Source: a phage
DNA length: 64,000 bases
Reading direction: 5' to 3' (one strand)
Sequence record: PX969468.1
The notes under the pieces are model-generated. The model had not been told where the DNA came from. It did no database searches and saw only the letters and a list, made by a program, of their open reading frames with translations. Position 1 is the first letter of the stretch. Each line of letters opens with the position of its first letter. Of the stretch, positions 1,982 to 15,082 are shown in pieces. Made by a program: the position numbers and the translations under genes.

Positions 1982-2275
1982 TCAAGACTTTTTAGTCTTT
2001 CTTGGAGAGCTTTTTGTTGATCTTTTCCTTTTGTGGTAGATTCCAAGTGCAGCGTTTTCTTGGGCGCACGTTTTAACAGTTCTCAGACAAGAACTTTCAG
2101 CTTTAGGCAGGTTTAACTCCCACCAACCAAGCCAGTAAAGTTCTGATTCAGACAACTGCTCAGATTCAGCCTTCCGATACAAGGCTTGCATACCTCTGAT
2201 GATATCGTCCAGAGGTGTATCGAATACAAAAGCTGTCTTATCGAATTTCTCTTTTACAGGTCTCTTAGCCATCAA
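1982..2275 (-). CDS. hypothetical protein with basic C-terminal tail
   Basis: 97 codons; C-terminus KRKRSTKSSPRKTKKS; overlaps next gene by 11 nt. Confidence 0.4.
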   Translation of the reverse strand: MMAKRPVKEKFDKTAFVFDTPLDDIIRGMQALYRKAESEQLSESELYWLGWWELNLPKAESSCLRTVKTCAQENAALGIYHKRKRSTKSSPRKTKKS

Positions 2276-2729
2276 GGTAACCCTCTATCCACGAAAAGTC
2301 AGTCTTCCATTCTGGAACTTTACTAAGCTCACGCCACTCTGCAAAGCAGTCTCTGTAATACGCCTCTGCCATACCTTTGGTGATCTTATTCACCTTAGCC
2401 AACTGATTAACTGCCTGAGCATACTTTCCACGGATATTTGCTAACCCAGGATGCACCGATGTGTGACAATCTGGGCACAACGCTATCAGTCCGACAAGCC
2501 GGATCACTCCATCTTCGAAAGTGTAAAGTTCATGACACTCCACTGGGTGTTTGCTGCCTTTACCGCCGCACACCTCACAGGTGTAGTTGGCTTCTCTATA
2601 GCACTTCTTGCGGATCTTATCCCACTCACTCTTCTTTACAGCGTTTCGGAGGTTATTATACCAAGCTGTTTCTGGGATCAGTTGCACAATAAGCCTGCGT
2701 TCAGACTTCATTAAACGTCCGTCTTCCAC
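2265..2729 (-). CDS. HNH-type zinc-finger nuclease-like protein
   Basis: 154 codons; CEVCGG...HPVECHE...CPDCH arrangement of Cys/His resembling HNH/Zn-ribbon nucleases. Confidence 0.45.
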   Translation of the reverse strand: MEDGRLMKSERRLIVQLIPETAWYNNLRNAVKKSEWDKIRKKCYREANYTCEVCGGKGSKHPVECHELYTFEDGVIRLVGLIALCPDCHTSVHPGLANIRGKYAQAVNQLAKVNKITKGMAEAYYRDCFAEWRELSKVPEWKTDFSWIEGYLDG

Positions 2730-2738
2730 GTATTCTCC

Positions 2739-2945
2739 TCATTCAAAGAAATGGGTGCGAGGACAAGATCCAGCCTCGCCTTGTTTCACAAGCTCGTAGA
2801 GCTCACCTTGACTTGTCTCATAAAGGCAAATACGTTTACCATTGTCCCGGTATACATCGACAAGATACGCTGTTTCACCTGCAAACACGACACCACAGGC
2901 CAGACATGCTGCCATGAACAAAATTGCCAACAGAAAATCTTTCAT
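2739..2945 (-). CDS. small exported protein, possible lipoprotein
   Basis: 68 codons; N-terminal hydrophobic signal-like segment LLAILFMAACLACG with Cys in lipobox-like context, short hydrophilic body with two further Cys. Confidence 0.4.
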   Translation of the reverse strand: MKDFLLAILFMAACLACGVVFAGETAYLVDVYRDNGKRICLYETSQGELYELVKQGEAGSCPRTHFFE

Positions 2946-3008
2946 GGTTAAACCCTCCTAAACATTTTATGAGGTAACAATACCACGTCCGTGTGGTTAT
3001 GTCAATGA

Positions 3009-3770
3009 TCAATCCTTAACACAAGGTCTTGGATAGCCTCTGGATAACTTCCACTCAGTTAGTGACATCTCTCCGTAGAGACAGTTTACTTCCCAAGACT
3101 TTCTTGCACAAACTGCCTCCCACCACGGATTTAGCCACTTCCTGTCGTTGAAGCACCTTAAGTTTCTTCCTTTGTTATCTCGTGCCCTCCAACAGGTATC
3201 TTTCTTAGACCAATCAATACCGGGCAGGATATTATTCTTGTGCGGGTTTGGAACTATCTTTAAAGCCTCTTCCGGGTTGGCTATCGACCATTCAATCCTA
3301 GATTTAGCCTCTTCGAAAGTGTCAAAATCTCCCAACCTAACATTTACCCTATTTATCCTTCTACTTGCCCTCCACTTACCCTCTCTTTTCAGCCATACCA
3401 CACCAGTCACTGTAGAGGTATTATTGCTTTGTACATTTTCCAAGGCTCTCTTACAGTAGTTATCCCATGGCTTCAACATTTGAAGGTTTTCTATCTTGTC
3501 TACAGGCACTCCGTTAGTAGAATTTTTCTTAGATACGATATGATCGATATGCCAAGTATCTGTGACACATCCGTAAAACATGTCAAAAATTTCCCTATGT
3601 CTGCCACGTTTAACATTTGTCAGCTTATTGTACACTTGGAAATATCCAGTCTTTTTGTTGTAGTGTCCAGCCCTATTTCCATTCCTACTGTAGCCAGGTT
3701 TCCAAAAGATTAGATCACCATCCTTGTACCAATAAGGGTAATGATCATTAAAAAAGAAATGTATCTTCAT
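3009..3770 (-). CDS. HNH homing endonuclease with AP2-like DNA-binding domain
   Basis: 253 codons; H-I-D-H...N HNH core followed by segment GVVWLKREGKWRASRRINRVNVRLGDFDTFEEA typical of AP2 domains fused to phage HNH endonucleases. Confidence 0.6.
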   Translation of the reverse strand: MKIHFFFNDHYPYWYKDGDLIFWKPGYSRNGNRAGHYNKKTGYFQVYNKLTNVKRGRHREIFDMFYGCVTDTWHIDHIVSKKNSTNGVPVDKIENLQMLKPWDNYCKRALENVQSNNTSTVTGVVWLKREGKWRASRRINRVNVRLGDFDTFEEAKSRIEWSIANPEEALKIVPNPHKNNILPGIDWSKKDTCWRARDNKGRNLRCFNDRKWLNPWWEAVCARKSWEVNCLYGEMSLTEWKLSRGYPRPCVKD

Positions 3771-3796
3771 ATCTCAACACACCTCTGGTGTAGAAA

Positions 3797-3820
3797 GGTA
3801 GGCGAGTGGCCTACCTTTTG
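3797..3820. terminator. hairpin GGTAGGC-loop-GCCTACC with flanking T/A runs downstream of endolysin gene
   Basis: 7-bp perfect stem read directly; T-run on one side. Confidence 0.35.
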
Positions 3821-3824
3821 ATCA

Positions 3825-4322
3825 TTAATCCAGAACAACACCTCCAAACTCTACAAATTTCTTAAGCAACTTGTCAATGGTTTTTGGATTTTGGTCGTAC
3901 TGGTTGTATGGGAACGAAGCCCAAATATTTGAGGTCTTACGTATAGCAGATTTAATATGACCGTTATCTATGTCTTCAAGTGCTTTACGTTCCCTGATCA
4001 ACTGGATTGCCCACTTATCCTGGCTATCTGGTCCAAAATCCGGCAACTTAAGCTGTTTTTTGTAGTGTTCCCAGTATTTGACAAGAAATTGATATTTACC
4101 GCAGGCTGTAGTTCTTTGCCCTTTTGAGTTAAACACTTTACCAGGGCGACCGTTTGCAAAAGGGTGTGTAGAAAAATCTGTAAAGATTTCAGGTTTTCCG
4201 TCCATCCCGTATGCTACAACATCGTATCCTCCACATTTGGTGGCAGGGTGGGTTGTTGTTCCCTCTGCCCAGCCAATAAGATCCAAGAAAGCTTTTCGTT
4301 GAATATTTTTATCAAGTTTCAT
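3825..4322 (-). CDS. endolysin, lambda R-type lytic transglycosylase
   Basis: 165 codons; N-terminal QRKAFLDLIGWAEGT and overall pattern recalled as resembling phage lambda R; no signal peptide. Confidence 0.6.
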   Translation of the reverse strand: MKLDKNIQRKAFLDLIGWAEGTTTHPATKCGGYDVVAYGMDGKPEIFTDFSTHPFANGRPGKVFNSKGQRTTACGKYQFLVKYWEHYKKQLKLPDFGPDSQDKWAIQLIRERKALEDIDNGHIKSAIRKTSNIWASFPYNQYDQNPKTIDKLLKKFVEFGGVVLD

Positions 4323-14399: not shown

Positions 14400-14798
14400 A
14401 TGATTTCAGTCTTAACATTGATGAGTAAATACAGAGGGATCATAAAAGGTTTAGTTTTTGCAGCGGCTATAGGCATGGCTTATCTTGGGGCCGTGTATTG
14501 GTTTAACTCTAAGCTCAATGATGCTTATCAGGAAGGTGTGTCAGCAACAGAGTTAAAGTGGGAACGGATCCTTGACCAACAACAAAAGCAGGCCGACAAA
14601 ATTAAAATGGGCCACGCAGAGGAGGTTAAAAACCTTGAAAAATCTCTTTCTGATCTACAGGATAAATTAAATATGGCTGAGAAGGCAGGTAAAGAAAAGC
14701 AGATTATCTACCTCCAATCTCCTGAAGGTAAGAAGTCAACACTTCCTGATCAGCTAATAGATATTTATAATGAGAGTATCAATCAGGAGGTTCGATGA
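14400..14798 (+). CDS. i-spanin (Rz-like inner-membrane spanin)
   Basis: 132 codons; N-terminal TM segment GLVFAAAIGMAYLGAVYWF then coiled-coil-like periplasmic domain; stop overlaps start of next gene. Confidence 0.6.
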   Translation: MISVLTLMSKYRGIIKGLVFAAAIGMAYLGAVYWFNSKLNDAYQEGVSATELKWERILDQQQKQADKIKMGHAEEVKNLEKSLSDLQDKLNMAEKAGKEKQIIYLQSPEGKKSTLPDQLIDIYNESINQEVR

Positions 14799-15082
14799 GA
14801 GTTACTGCACTGGTTGTTTTGTGCTTGTTATTGTGTGGGTGTGCAACCAGCGTTGAGAGAGAATACAAGATTGACCCTCCGGATGTAGGAAGGTTGATTG
14901 TTAAACCTCCCGAGGGTGCTATGAAACCACCTGCTAAAGCTATCCCTTTGAAGAAAGGTGCGCCAGATGCGGTGAATTCTGGCATTATGAGGGATAATAA
15001 CCTGTCTTGTAGTAATGATAGAGCTAAATTGATCATTTTGCAAGACTATATAAGAACACTGTTTCCAAAGGAGAGAGGTTAA
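14795..15082 (+). CDS. o-spanin (Rz1-like outer-membrane lipoprotein)
   Basis: 95 codons; signal peptide with lipobox L-C-G-C, proline-rich mature part. Confidence 0.6.
   Translation: MRVTALVVLCLLLCGCATSVEREYKIDPPDVGRLIVKPPEGAMKPPAKAIPLKKGAPDAVNSGIMRDNNLSCSNDRAKLIILQDYIRTLFPKERG

What the first reader, a model, noticed from the sequence alone, without database searches (positions are those of the whole stretch)
2739..2945. Small exported/lipoprotein-like gene sandwiched between two HNH endonuclease genes
Seen in sequence: a 68-codon ORF with a hydrophobic N-terminus containing LAACLAC and a short Cys-containing hydrophilic body. Established knowledge: small phage-encoded lipoproteins made early can block the phage's own receptor (superinfection exclusion). 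Inference: a candidate exclusion lipoprotein; signal type (lipoprotein versus Sec) is uncertain because the lipobox is non-canonical.
Basis: partly seen in the sequence, partly recalled or inferred. Interest (0 to 1): 0.4.

Follow-up and report, generated by a model that had tools for sequence, protein, structure and literature searches.

The report
Small secreted phage protein, not lipoprotein
The 68-codon gene is real and belongs to a conserved, uncharacterised family of rV5-like phage mini-proteins that are exported to the periplasm with an ordinary cleavable signal peptide, so it is not a lipoprotein, and what it does there has not been tested.

Summary
The ORF at 2739..2945 (- strand) is a genuine gene. 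It is rV5 gp90, member of phrog_4641 (function unknown), in a Vequintavirus 99.8% identical to phage SophiaRose. It has a strong Shine-Dalgarno site and its own sigma-70-type promoter. It does lie between two HNH genes, but the upstream HNH is a mobile insertion found in only 19 of 121 relatives. Elsewhere the gene directly follows the endolysin.

The lipoprotein reading fails. Cys14 and Cys17 are confined to the rV5 clade: 99 of 119 family members have no N-terminal Cys and only 1 has a strict lipobox. In contrast, 120 of 121 members have a small-residue -3/-1 site (90 are AxA) just before the conserved core. The N-terminus evolves almost freely (dN 0.94), while the 46-residue mature part is under strong purifying selection (dN 0.17) and always has exactly two Cys.

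The most likely product is a Sec-exported, signal-peptidase-I-cleaved periplasmic mini-protein with four beta strands and probably one disulfide. Its fold matches only generic small beta-barrels and no characterised protein.

An early envelope-protection or superinfection-exclusion role is possible but untested. Neighbouring genes are not conserved across genera. The phage's spanins lie elsewhere, and its candidate holin is a different gene.

The parts
2739..2945 (-). Gene for the 68-aa pre-protein (rV5 gp90 orthologue, phrog_4641), including the TGA stop at 2739-2741
   Evidence: ORF listed; phrog_4641 E 4e-28; 100% identical to the rV5, FFH2 and SophiaRose proteins; rV5 Table S3 lists gene 90 as 68 aa, 7603 Da, pI 4.8, with no function
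2880..2945 (-). Predicted Sec signal peptide, residues 1-22 (MKDFLLAILFMAACLACGVVFA), with signal peptidase I cleavage after VFA, before G23
   Evidence: A -3/-1 small-residue site at the aligned position in 120 of 121 family members, 90 of them AxA; sequence otherwise unconserved, dN 0.94; Cys14 and Cys17 not conserved
2742..2879 (-). Mature 46-residue domain (GETAYLVD...CPRTHFFE): four beta strands and two invariant Cys (Cys40, Cys61 of the precursor)
   Evidence: AF2 model pLDDT 90.5, strands 2-12, 15-21, 27-32 and 42-45; invariant T, L, D, Y, C, Y, C, P; exactly 2 Cys in 119 of 119; dN 0.17
2953..2959 (-). Shine-Dalgarno sequence AGGAGGG, 7 nt before the ATG
   Evidence: Read from the sequence; the AGGAGGG stretch is identical in the window, FFH2 and SophiaRose, and a purine-rich GGAGGG run is also present before the ATG in the divergent L003 lineage
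2977..3005 (-). Sigma-70-type promoter TTGACA-17 nt-TATTGT with a TG extended -10 (rV5 promoter P090)
   Evidence: Consensus scan, 10 of 12 matches plus TG; listed independently as P090 in rV5 Table S4; TTGACA and TGGTAT invariant while the spacer and leader diverged in lineage L003
3009..3770 (-). HNH-AP2 homing-endonuclease gene inserted between the endolysin and the promoter of the small gene; context, not a functional part
   Evidence: phrog_99 E 2.5e-20, Pfam AP2 and HNH; present in 19 of 121 related records; absent in FFH2 and rV5
3825..4322 (-). Endolysin, the ancestral upstream neighbour of the small gene in Vequintavirus; context
   Evidence: phrog_90 endolysin E 4e-51; 51% identical to the FFH2 endolysin; 45% identical to the endolysin that precedes the orthologue in L003. 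Resemblance to lambda R lysozyme is from my own knowledge
2265..2729 (-). Downstream HNH gene (rV5 gp91 orthologue), conserved in the genus; context
   Evidence: phrog_5200 E 1e-72; rV5 Table S3 gene 91; a PVP-SE1 homologue is annotated

Best explanation
The gene encodes a pre-protein that is exported and acts in the periplasm.

Shown or strongly indicated:
- It is transcribed from its own sigma-70-type promoter, and probably also by read-through from upstream genes.
- It is translated from a strong Shine-Dalgarno site.
- The N-terminus has a positively charged residue (K2), a hydrophobic core and a small-residue -3/-1 site (V-F-A before G23). That is the layout of a Sec signal peptide cut by signal peptidase I.

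Inferred:
- Cleavage releases a soluble, acidic 46-residue protein into the periplasm.
- The protein folds into a four-stranded beta mini-domain.
- Its two invariant cysteines form a disulfide, made by DsbA.

Guessed function:
- Because it is probably made early, is stand-alone, and is more conserved than its neighbours, it most likely binds a conserved envelope component or an incoming phage part.
- This would protect or condition the infected cell's envelope, for example by superinfection exclusion or protection from lysis-from-without. That is the kind of job done by T4 Spackle or P1 Sim.
- It would do this without any lipid anchor and without receptor specificity.

Sub-confidences: exported with a type I signal, not a lipoprotein, about 0.85. 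Soluble periplasmic after cleavage, about 0.75. Exclusion or protective function, about 0.3.
For: Export signal:
- 120 of 121 family members have a -3/-1 small-residue site 1-4 residues before the conserved core (90 AxA, 16 VxA). Median signal length is 24, and most have a net positive n-region.
- The N-terminal region is the least conserved part (dN 0.94), against dN 0.17 for the mature part with saturated dS. This pattern fits a cleaved targeting signal.
- No lipobox: 99 of 119 lack any N-terminal Cys and 1 of 119 has a strict lipobox. Divergent members carry textbook sites: PAFA|T in PVP-SE1, VAA|G in Phapecoctavirus, ASA|S in the Serratia phage.

Periplasmic domain:
- Exactly two Cys in the mature part in 119 of 119.
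- Confident AF2 beta model, pLDDT 90.5.

Promoter:
- Found in the scan and published independently as P090 in rV5.
- Its hexamers are conserved across a diverged spacer.

Stand-alone and conserved:
- Present in 291 phage records across Vequintavirus, Seunavirus, Certrevirus, Klebsiella, Serratia, Erwinia and Proteus relatives, and Phapecoctavirus.
- Its neighbours differ between genera.
- The mature domain is 76% identical to lineage L003. Over the same comparison the exonuclease is 78%, the ligase 65% and the endolysin 45%.
- A variant sits beside a lambda-Kil-like gene in another phage-like element.
Against: - No signal-peptide predictor could be run, and there is no experimental localisation.
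- The uncharged N-terminal stretch is long (19 residues in the window protein, family median 18.5), so an uncleaved signal anchor is not excluded. GenBank annotators call the product a 'putative membrane protein'.
- The window protein formally matches a relaxed lipobox pattern at Cys14.
- Early timing is inferred only from promoter type and genome position. No transcriptome of an rV5-like phage was found.
- The promoter scan found about as many sites as in shuffled sequence (13 against 9.7 expected).
- Nothing links the protein to exclusion specifically. The fold searches return only generic small beta-barrels.
- Exclusion genes are often accessory, whereas this gene is core to the group.
Confidence: 0.55

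Rival explanations
1. A periplasmic protein as above, but with a different job. It could inhibit or hijack a conserved host envelope enzyme, transporter, stress sensor or envelope-located defence system. It could also bind a cell-wall or glycan component. In each case it would be host takeover or anti-defence rather than exclusion of other phages.
For: All the export evidence applies equally. The gene is core across genera with different hosts and receptors and strongly conserved, which suits a conserved host target. The invariant Asp and Tyr residues on the first two strands could form a ligand site, but that is speculation.
Against: No host homologue, known domain or informative structural match was found. 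No partner gene is conserved nearby. Nothing points to a particular target.
Confidence: 0.22
2. A lysis-timing factor. It would be a periplasmic or signal-anchored regulator working like the T4 RI antiholin, or a partner of the endolysin or holin. It would be kept next to the endolysin because it works with the lysis system.
For: In Vequintavirus the gene lies 63 nt downstream of the endolysin. The endolysin/small-gene pair stays together in lineage L003 although the surrounding gene order differs. The holin of rV5-like phages is not firmly identified (LL12 announcement PMC6658697). rV5 and PVP-SE1 have rIIA and rIIB homologues (PMC7344957).
Against: - The adjacency is lost in PVP-SE1, CR8, the Serratia phage, the Salmonella phage and Phapecoctavirus.
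- Ten Pectobacterium phage records carry a homologue. At least some Pectobacterium Certreviruses (CB7 and PhiTE) use a different endolysin type and lack rII genes.
- The gene has its own sigma-70-type promoter.
- It is beta-rich, unlike RI, which I recall as helical.
- The rV5 holin candidate gp129 has two transmembrane segments and so offers no large periplasmic domain to bind.
Confidence: 0.12
3. One reading: an outer-membrane lipoprotein, lipidated at Cys14 or Cys17, that blocks the phage's own receptor in the manner of T5 Llp or Cor.
For: FMAAC14 matches the residue pattern of the PROSITE lipoprotein profile, and K2 lies in the n-region. A small Cys-containing body with a likely disulfide resembles Llp in general terms. 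That comparison rests on my own knowledge.
Against: - As I recall the PROSITE positional rule (15-35), Cys14 falls outside it, and Cys17 has Cys at -3 and Leu at -2.
- The N-terminal Cys residues are absent in most of the family while the AxA site is kept.
- The same phage's real o-spanin shows what a proper lipobox looks like (LLCG|C at position 16).
- The gene is not next to receptor-binding genes.
- As I recall from the BASEL phage study, rV5-like phages rely on glycan receptors reached with several fibres.
Confidence: 0.06
4. An uncleaved bitopic inner-membrane protein (N-in, C-out) that acts as the missing holin.
For: One hydrophobic segment of about 19 residues. The gene is next to the endolysin in this genus. 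Database entries call it a 'putative membrane protein'.
Against: - The hydrophobic segment is the least conserved part, whereas the transmembrane segments of a holin would be expected to be conserved.
- The cytoplasmic part would be only 2-3 residues, and there is no charged cytoplasmic tail.
- The AxA site is conserved.
- The promoter is of the sigma-70 type.
- The gene is not linked to the endolysin outside this genus.
Confidence: 0.04

Closest known systems
phrog_4641 / rV5 gp90 / PVP-SE1 gene 119 product (annotated 'hypothetical membrane protein')
   Same: Direct membership. The window protein matches the profile over its full length at E 4e-28. It is 100% identical to rV5 gp90. Divergent members from Seunavirus, Certrevirus, Phapecoctavirus and metagenomes all fall in this one PHROG.
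   Different: Nothing differs. The family has no assigned function, and its usual label 'membrane protein' is probably a signal peptide misread as a transmembrane helix.
T4 Spackle (gp61.3) and P1 Sim: phage-encoded periplasmic superinfection-exclusion proteins with cleavable signal peptides (from my own knowledge)
   Same: Small, stand-alone and exported to the periplasm by a Sec-type signal. Encoded by a lytic myovirus among early or middle genes. In this genus the gene sits next to a lysozyme-type gene.
   Different: No sequence or fold similarity: Spackle is helical and this protein is all-beta. At 46 residues the mature protein is much smaller. No exclusion phenotype or target is known.
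T5 Llp and T1/phi80 Cor: receptor-blocking lipoproteins
   Same: Small exported phage proteins with a Cys-containing body.
   Different: Those proteins need a lipobox and a lipid anchor, block one protein receptor (FhuA), and are encoded by or near receptor-binding genes. This description is from my own knowledge. Here there is no conserved lipobox, the gene lies in the replication module, and it is conserved across genera with different hosts.
T4 RI antiholin (from my own knowledge)
   Same: An N-terminal export signal followed by a small periplasmic domain. A possible link to lysis through endolysin adjacency in this genus.
   Different: RI uses a signal-anchor-release domain, has a helical periplasmic domain and binds the large periplasmic domain of holin T. 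Here there is an AxA cleavage site, a beta fold and no T-like holin. The rV5 candidate holin gp129 has two transmembrane segments.

Membership tests
Bacterial lipoprotein (Lgt/LspA substrate) | Lipobox [LVI][ASTVI][GAS]C with the Cys at about position 15-35 and a positive n-region | tested here: not met
   There is no strict lipobox. The relaxed PROSITE-style pattern matches only FMAAC with the Cys at position 14, which is outside the 15-35 rule as I recall it. Cys17 has Cys at -3 and Leu at -2.
Bacterial lipoprotein (Lgt/LspA substrate) | The lipidated Cys is conserved among homologues | tested here: not met
   99 of 119 homologues have no Cys before the mature core, and 1 of 119 has a strict lipobox. 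Lineages P0006-P0010, PVP-SE1, Phapecoctavirus and CR8 lack it.
Bacterial lipoprotein (Lgt/LspA substrate) | Lipid modification and globomycin-sensitive processing | not testable with these tools
   Needs palmitate labelling and globomycin treatment.
Sec signal peptide cleaved by signal peptidase I | Positive n-region, hydrophobic h-region and small uncharged residues at -3 and -1 before the mature protein | tested here: met
   MK(D) n-region, hydrophobic core, V-F-A|G. 120 of 121 family members have such a site at the aligned position, 90 of them AxA, with median signal length 24.
Sec signal peptide cleaved by signal peptidase I | Signal region evolves freely while the mature part is constrained | tested here: met
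   Signal peptide dN 0.94 against mature dN 0.17. In the mature part 25 codon changes are synonymous and 11 nonsynonymous.
Sec signal peptide cleaved by signal peptidase I | Actual cleavage and periplasmic location | not testable with these tools
   SignalP and LipoP are not available here. Needs fractionation and N-terminal mass spectrometry.
phrog_4641 | Significant full-length match to the family profile | tested here: met
   E 4.4e-28 over residues 1-68 of a 68-position profile. Distant members also match.
T5 Llp / Cor receptor-blocking exclusion lipoproteins | Sequence or fold homology to Llp or Cor | tested here: not met
T5 Llp / Cor receptor-blocking exclusion lipoproteins | Blocks adsorption or receptor function | not testable with these tools
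   Needs adsorption and plating assays.
Holin | Conserved transmembrane segment(s) retained in the membrane plus a charged cytoplasmic tail | tested here: not met
   The hydrophobic segment is the least conserved part and is followed by an AxA site. The C-terminal part is a Cys-containing beta domain. No cytoplasmic tail is possible with an N-terminus of 2-3 residues.
Holin | Linked to the endolysin gene across relatives | tested here: inconclusive
   Adjacent in Vequintavirus and lineage L003. Not adjacent in PVP-SE1, CR8, the Serratia phage, the Salmonella phage or Phapecoctavirus.
o-spanin (Rz1-like) | Lipobox plus an adjacent or embedded i-spanin partner | tested here: not met
   The phage's i-spanin and o-spanin pair is at window 14400..14795 and 14795..15079 (+), and the o-spanin has a proper lipobox. 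The pair is also reported for rV5-like phages in PMC6139136 and PMC6658697. No i-spanin lies next to the small gene.
T4 Spackle / RI-type periplasmic phage proteins | Homology to Spackle or RI in sequence or helical fold | tested here: not met
   The model is all-beta. No such PDB match was found.

The most novel reading that the evidence does not exclude
phrog_4641 would be a previously unrecognised class of phage periplasmic effector. It would be a roughly 45-residue disulfide-locked beta mini-protein, core to rV5-like, PVP-SE1-like and phAPEC8-like myoviruses and also present in an unrelated Kil-carrying element. It would bind a conserved envelope component of Enterobacterales early in infection. 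Possible effects are blocking DNA entry by later phages, neutralising an envelope-located defence, or stabilising the wall until lysis. It would share no fold or sequence with Spackle, Sim, Imm, RI or Llp.
Probability: 0.3. Interest if true: 0.55.

Novelty: new member of a known kind. Interest (0 to 1): 0.3.

Why it matters
rV5-like phages are widely used in therapy and biocontrol cocktails against E. coli O157 and relatives, yet most of their genes have no known function.

This analysis changes the reading of the gene from 'membrane protein' or 'lipoprotein' to a probably soluble periplasmic protein. It also shows the gene is a strongly conserved core gene with its own promoter. That makes it a well-defined, easily cloned candidate (46 residues after cleavage) for finding a new phage-host contact point in the periplasm.

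If it does exclude other phages, that would bear on the design of cocktails that combine related phages. As it stands, this is an ordinary small secreted phage protein of unknown function, not a surprising one.

Tried and rejected
- **Known families.** Pfam, NCBIfam and PDB sequence searches gave nothing.
- **Exhaustive profile search.** A search of 1.8 billion representatives gave only small phage-type homologues plus three repetitive large proteins that I judge spurious.
- **Conserved partner gene.** I looked across genera. Neighbours differ and none has an informative PHROG.
- **Endolysin as functional partner.** The idea holds only in Vequintavirus and one sister lineage and fails elsewhere.
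- **Inhibitor of a secreted SleB-like hydrolase.** This enzyme is reported for Certrevirus. Six tail and baseplate ORFs had no such domain. That query is unreliable, so the idea is dropped rather than disproved.
- **Expression data.** No transcriptome of an rV5-like phage was found in the library.
- **The roughly 20-kb element carrying a homologue.** There was no match in phages, plasmids or complete E. coli genomes.
- **Two short metagenome contigs** gave no useful context.

Full report
**What the window is.** The region 2200-3900 is 99.8% identical to Escherichia phage vB_EcoM_SophiaRose and 97-99% identical to many other Vequintavirus (rV5-like) genomes. All genes around the finding are on the - strand, in this order: DNA ligase, endolysin (3825..4322), an HNH-AP2 gene (3009..3770), the small ORF (2739..2945), a second HNH gene (2265..2729), two small genes, then a 5'-3' exonuclease.

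**The observation.**
- The 68-codon ORF exists as described. Its sequence is MKDFLLAILFMAACLACGVVFAGETAYLVDVYRDNGKRICLYETSQGELYELVKQGEAGSCPRTHFFE.
- An AGGAGGG Shine-Dalgarno site lies 7 nt before the ATG.
- The ORF is a real gene. It matches phrog_4641 over its full length at E 4e-28. It is identical to gene 90 of rV5, listed in that paper's Table S3 as 68 aa, 7603 Da, pI 4.8, with no function.
- Against a 62%-identical orthologue, the mature part shows 25 synonymous and 11 nonsynonymous codon differences, with dN 0.17 and dS saturated.
- The motif is MAACLAC, not LAACLAC.
- Both flanking genes are HNH genes. However, the upstream one is a mobile insertion present in only 19 of 121 related records. 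In FFH2 and rV5 the small gene follows the endolysin after a 63-nt gap.

**Lipoprotein or ordinary signal peptide.**
- A first search found about ten close clusters. An exhaustive profile search and a second word-indexed search with a diverse alignment raised this to 187 clusters, all 63-86 residues long.
- In the alignment, the two N-terminal cysteines of the window protein are confined to the rV5 clade. A sister lineage reads MKTLWAVFISAMMFASGSAWS|GDTAYLVD, with no Cys.
- Across 119 members with a recognisable core, 99 have no Cys before the mature domain and only one has a strict lipobox. All 119 have exactly two Cys in the mature domain.
- What is conserved at the junction is a signal-peptidase-I site. 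120 of 121 members have small residues at -3 and -1 within 1-4 residues of the conserved core (90 AxA, 16 VxA), with a median signal length of 24.
- Divergent members have textbook sites...SSPAFA|TVNTL in PVP-SE1...TVAA|GQITL in Phapecoctavirus and ...GKASA|SQTM in a Serratia phage.
- The signal region evolves almost freely (dN 0.94) while the mature part is constrained. That is the expected pattern for a cleaved targeting signal, not for a functional transmembrane helix.
- The window protein does match the residue pattern of the PROSITE lipoprotein profile at FMAAC14. But position 14 is outside the 15-35 rule as I recall it, and the match is not conserved.
- For contrast, the same phage's real o-spanin (window 14795..15079) has a proper lipobox with the Cys at position 16.

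**The mature protein.**
- After cleavage at VFA|G, the product would be 46 residues long and acidic. The invariant positions (precursor numbering) are T25, L28, D30, C40, Y42, C61 and P62, with Y32 nearly invariant.
- AlphaFold2 predicts a four-stranded beta mini-domain with high confidence (pLDDT 90.5, pTM 0.70).
- The two invariant cysteines, in an exported protein, most likely form one disulfide. This is inference. I could not inspect the model coordinates.
- Pfam, NCBIfam and PDB sequence searches were empty.

**Expression signals.**
- A sigma-70-type promoter, TTGACA-17 nt-TATTGT with a TG extended -10, lies at 3005..2977, in the 63-nt gap upstream.
- On its own this is weak evidence. The scan found 13 sites in the region against 9.7 expected from shuffled sequence.
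- Two things strengthen it. The same site is listed independently as promoter P090 in the rV5 paper's Table S4. And in the divergent L003 lineage the TTGACA and TGGTAT elements are invariant while the spacer and leader have diverged completely.
- The HNH insertion in the window lies just upstream of this promoter and leaves it intact.
- Early expression by host RNA polymerase is therefore likely but inferred. I found no transcriptome for any rV5-like phage.

**Context across relatives.**
- Homologues occur in 291 phage records. These include Vequintavirus, Seunavirus (PVP-SE1 gene 119, annotated 'hypothetical membrane protein'), Certrevirus (CR8_243), Phapecoctavirus, and phages of Klebsiella, Enterobacter, Erwinia, Proteus, Serratia and Pectobacterium. 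All tested members fall in phrog_4641.
- The gene always sits in the replication and recombination region, but its immediate neighbours differ:
  - an endolysin in Vequintavirus and lineage L003, where the pair has stayed together despite a rearrangement;
  - a protease-like lipoprotein in PVP-SE1;
  - an unknown 168-residue protein in CR8;
  - exonuclease genes in Phapecoctavirus.
- The mature domain is 76% identical between the window and L003. That is as conserved as the exonuclease (78%) and much more than the adjacent endolysin (45%).
- A variant with a longer charged n-region lies beside a lambda-Kil-like gene on roughly 20-kb contigs from E. coli assemblies.

**What it most likely does.**
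- The well-supported part is export by a type I signal peptide and release of a small, probably disulfide-bonded beta protein into the periplasm (confidence about 0.75-0.85).
- The function is inference. The protein is stand-alone, probably early, strongly conserved and periplasmic, and it is encoded by a lytic phage. It most plausibly binds a conserved envelope component or an incoming phage part.
- My best single guess is protection of the infected cell, meaning superinfection exclusion or resistance to lysis-from-without. T4 Spackle and P1 Sim do this kind of job (from my own knowledge). I put this at about 0.3.
- Another periplasmic host-takeover or anti-defence role is nearly as likely.
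- A lysis-timing role is supported only by the endolysin adjacency in one genus. It is weakened by the loss of that adjacency elsewhere, and by the gene's presence in Pectobacterium phages, at least some of which use a different endolysin and lack rII genes.
- A holin role does not fit. The hydrophobic segment is the least conserved part, an AxA site follows it, and there is no cytoplasmic tail. The rV5 authors proposed gp129, a protein with two transmembrane segments, as the holin.
- The spanins are already accounted for next to the terminase.
- The Llp/Cor-type model of a receptor-blocking lipoprotein fails on the lipid anchor, on homology and on gene location.

**Verdict.** 'Lipoprotein' is not supported, and the exclusion idea survives only in a generic, untested form. 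The gene is already in the databases as a hypothetical or 'membrane' protein of an uncharacterised PHROG. What this analysis adds is the likely soluble periplasmic location, the breadth of the family, the conservation pattern and the conserved promoter. Interest is modest.

Noticed in passing
window 3009..4322 (- strand): The endolysin here is only 51% identical to the FFH2/rV5 endolysin, although the DNA on the small-gene side is about 99% identical. The divergent allele sits directly next to the extra HNH-AP2 gene, which 19 of 121 relatives carry. Similarity to FFH2 resumes exactly at the shared GATTGA stop region. This looks like an endolysin allele swap carried along with a homing endonuclease. 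I did not check whether all 19 HNH-carrying records have this endolysin allele.
   Followed up: partly
GenBank records MG065635-MG065690: About 19 records named 'Campylobacter phage', with host given as Campylobacter jejuni, are 97-99.8% identical to E. coli Vequintavirus genomes over this region. They are probably mislabelled or contaminant E. coli phages.
   Followed up: no
L013 7885..8130 and L014 10001..10246 (roughly 19.9-kb contigs from E. coli assemblies): A phrog_4641 homologue (81 aa, with a long charged n-region) lies in a same-strand gene array with a lambda-Kil-like gene, a Dit-like tail gene, a 759-aa protein, a TnpB (IS605 OrfB) gene and an HNH gene. A dozen different homologue clusters sit on contigs of similar size (18.6-21.6 kb). 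There is no match in the phage, plasmid or complete E. coli genome collections. The element is unidentified.
   Followed up: partly
window 2875..3012 (- strand) and protein P0004: One database protein (90 aa) fuses the out-of-frame ORF 2875..3012 to the small gene. This is most likely a frameshift error in an assembly, not an alternative product.
   Followed up: partly
window 14400..15079 (+ strand): The phage's i-spanin and o-spanin pair overlaps by one base and lies beside the split large-terminase gene, far from the endolysin. The terminase gene is interrupted and has an HNH gene within it, as published for rV5.
   Followed up: no
window 2265..2729 (- strand): The downstream HNH gene (rV5 gp91) is conserved in the genus and has homologues at the equivalent place in PVP-SE1 and in the Serratia and Salmonella relatives. 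It therefore behaves like a resident gene rather than a recently inserted homing endonuclease.
   Followed up: no
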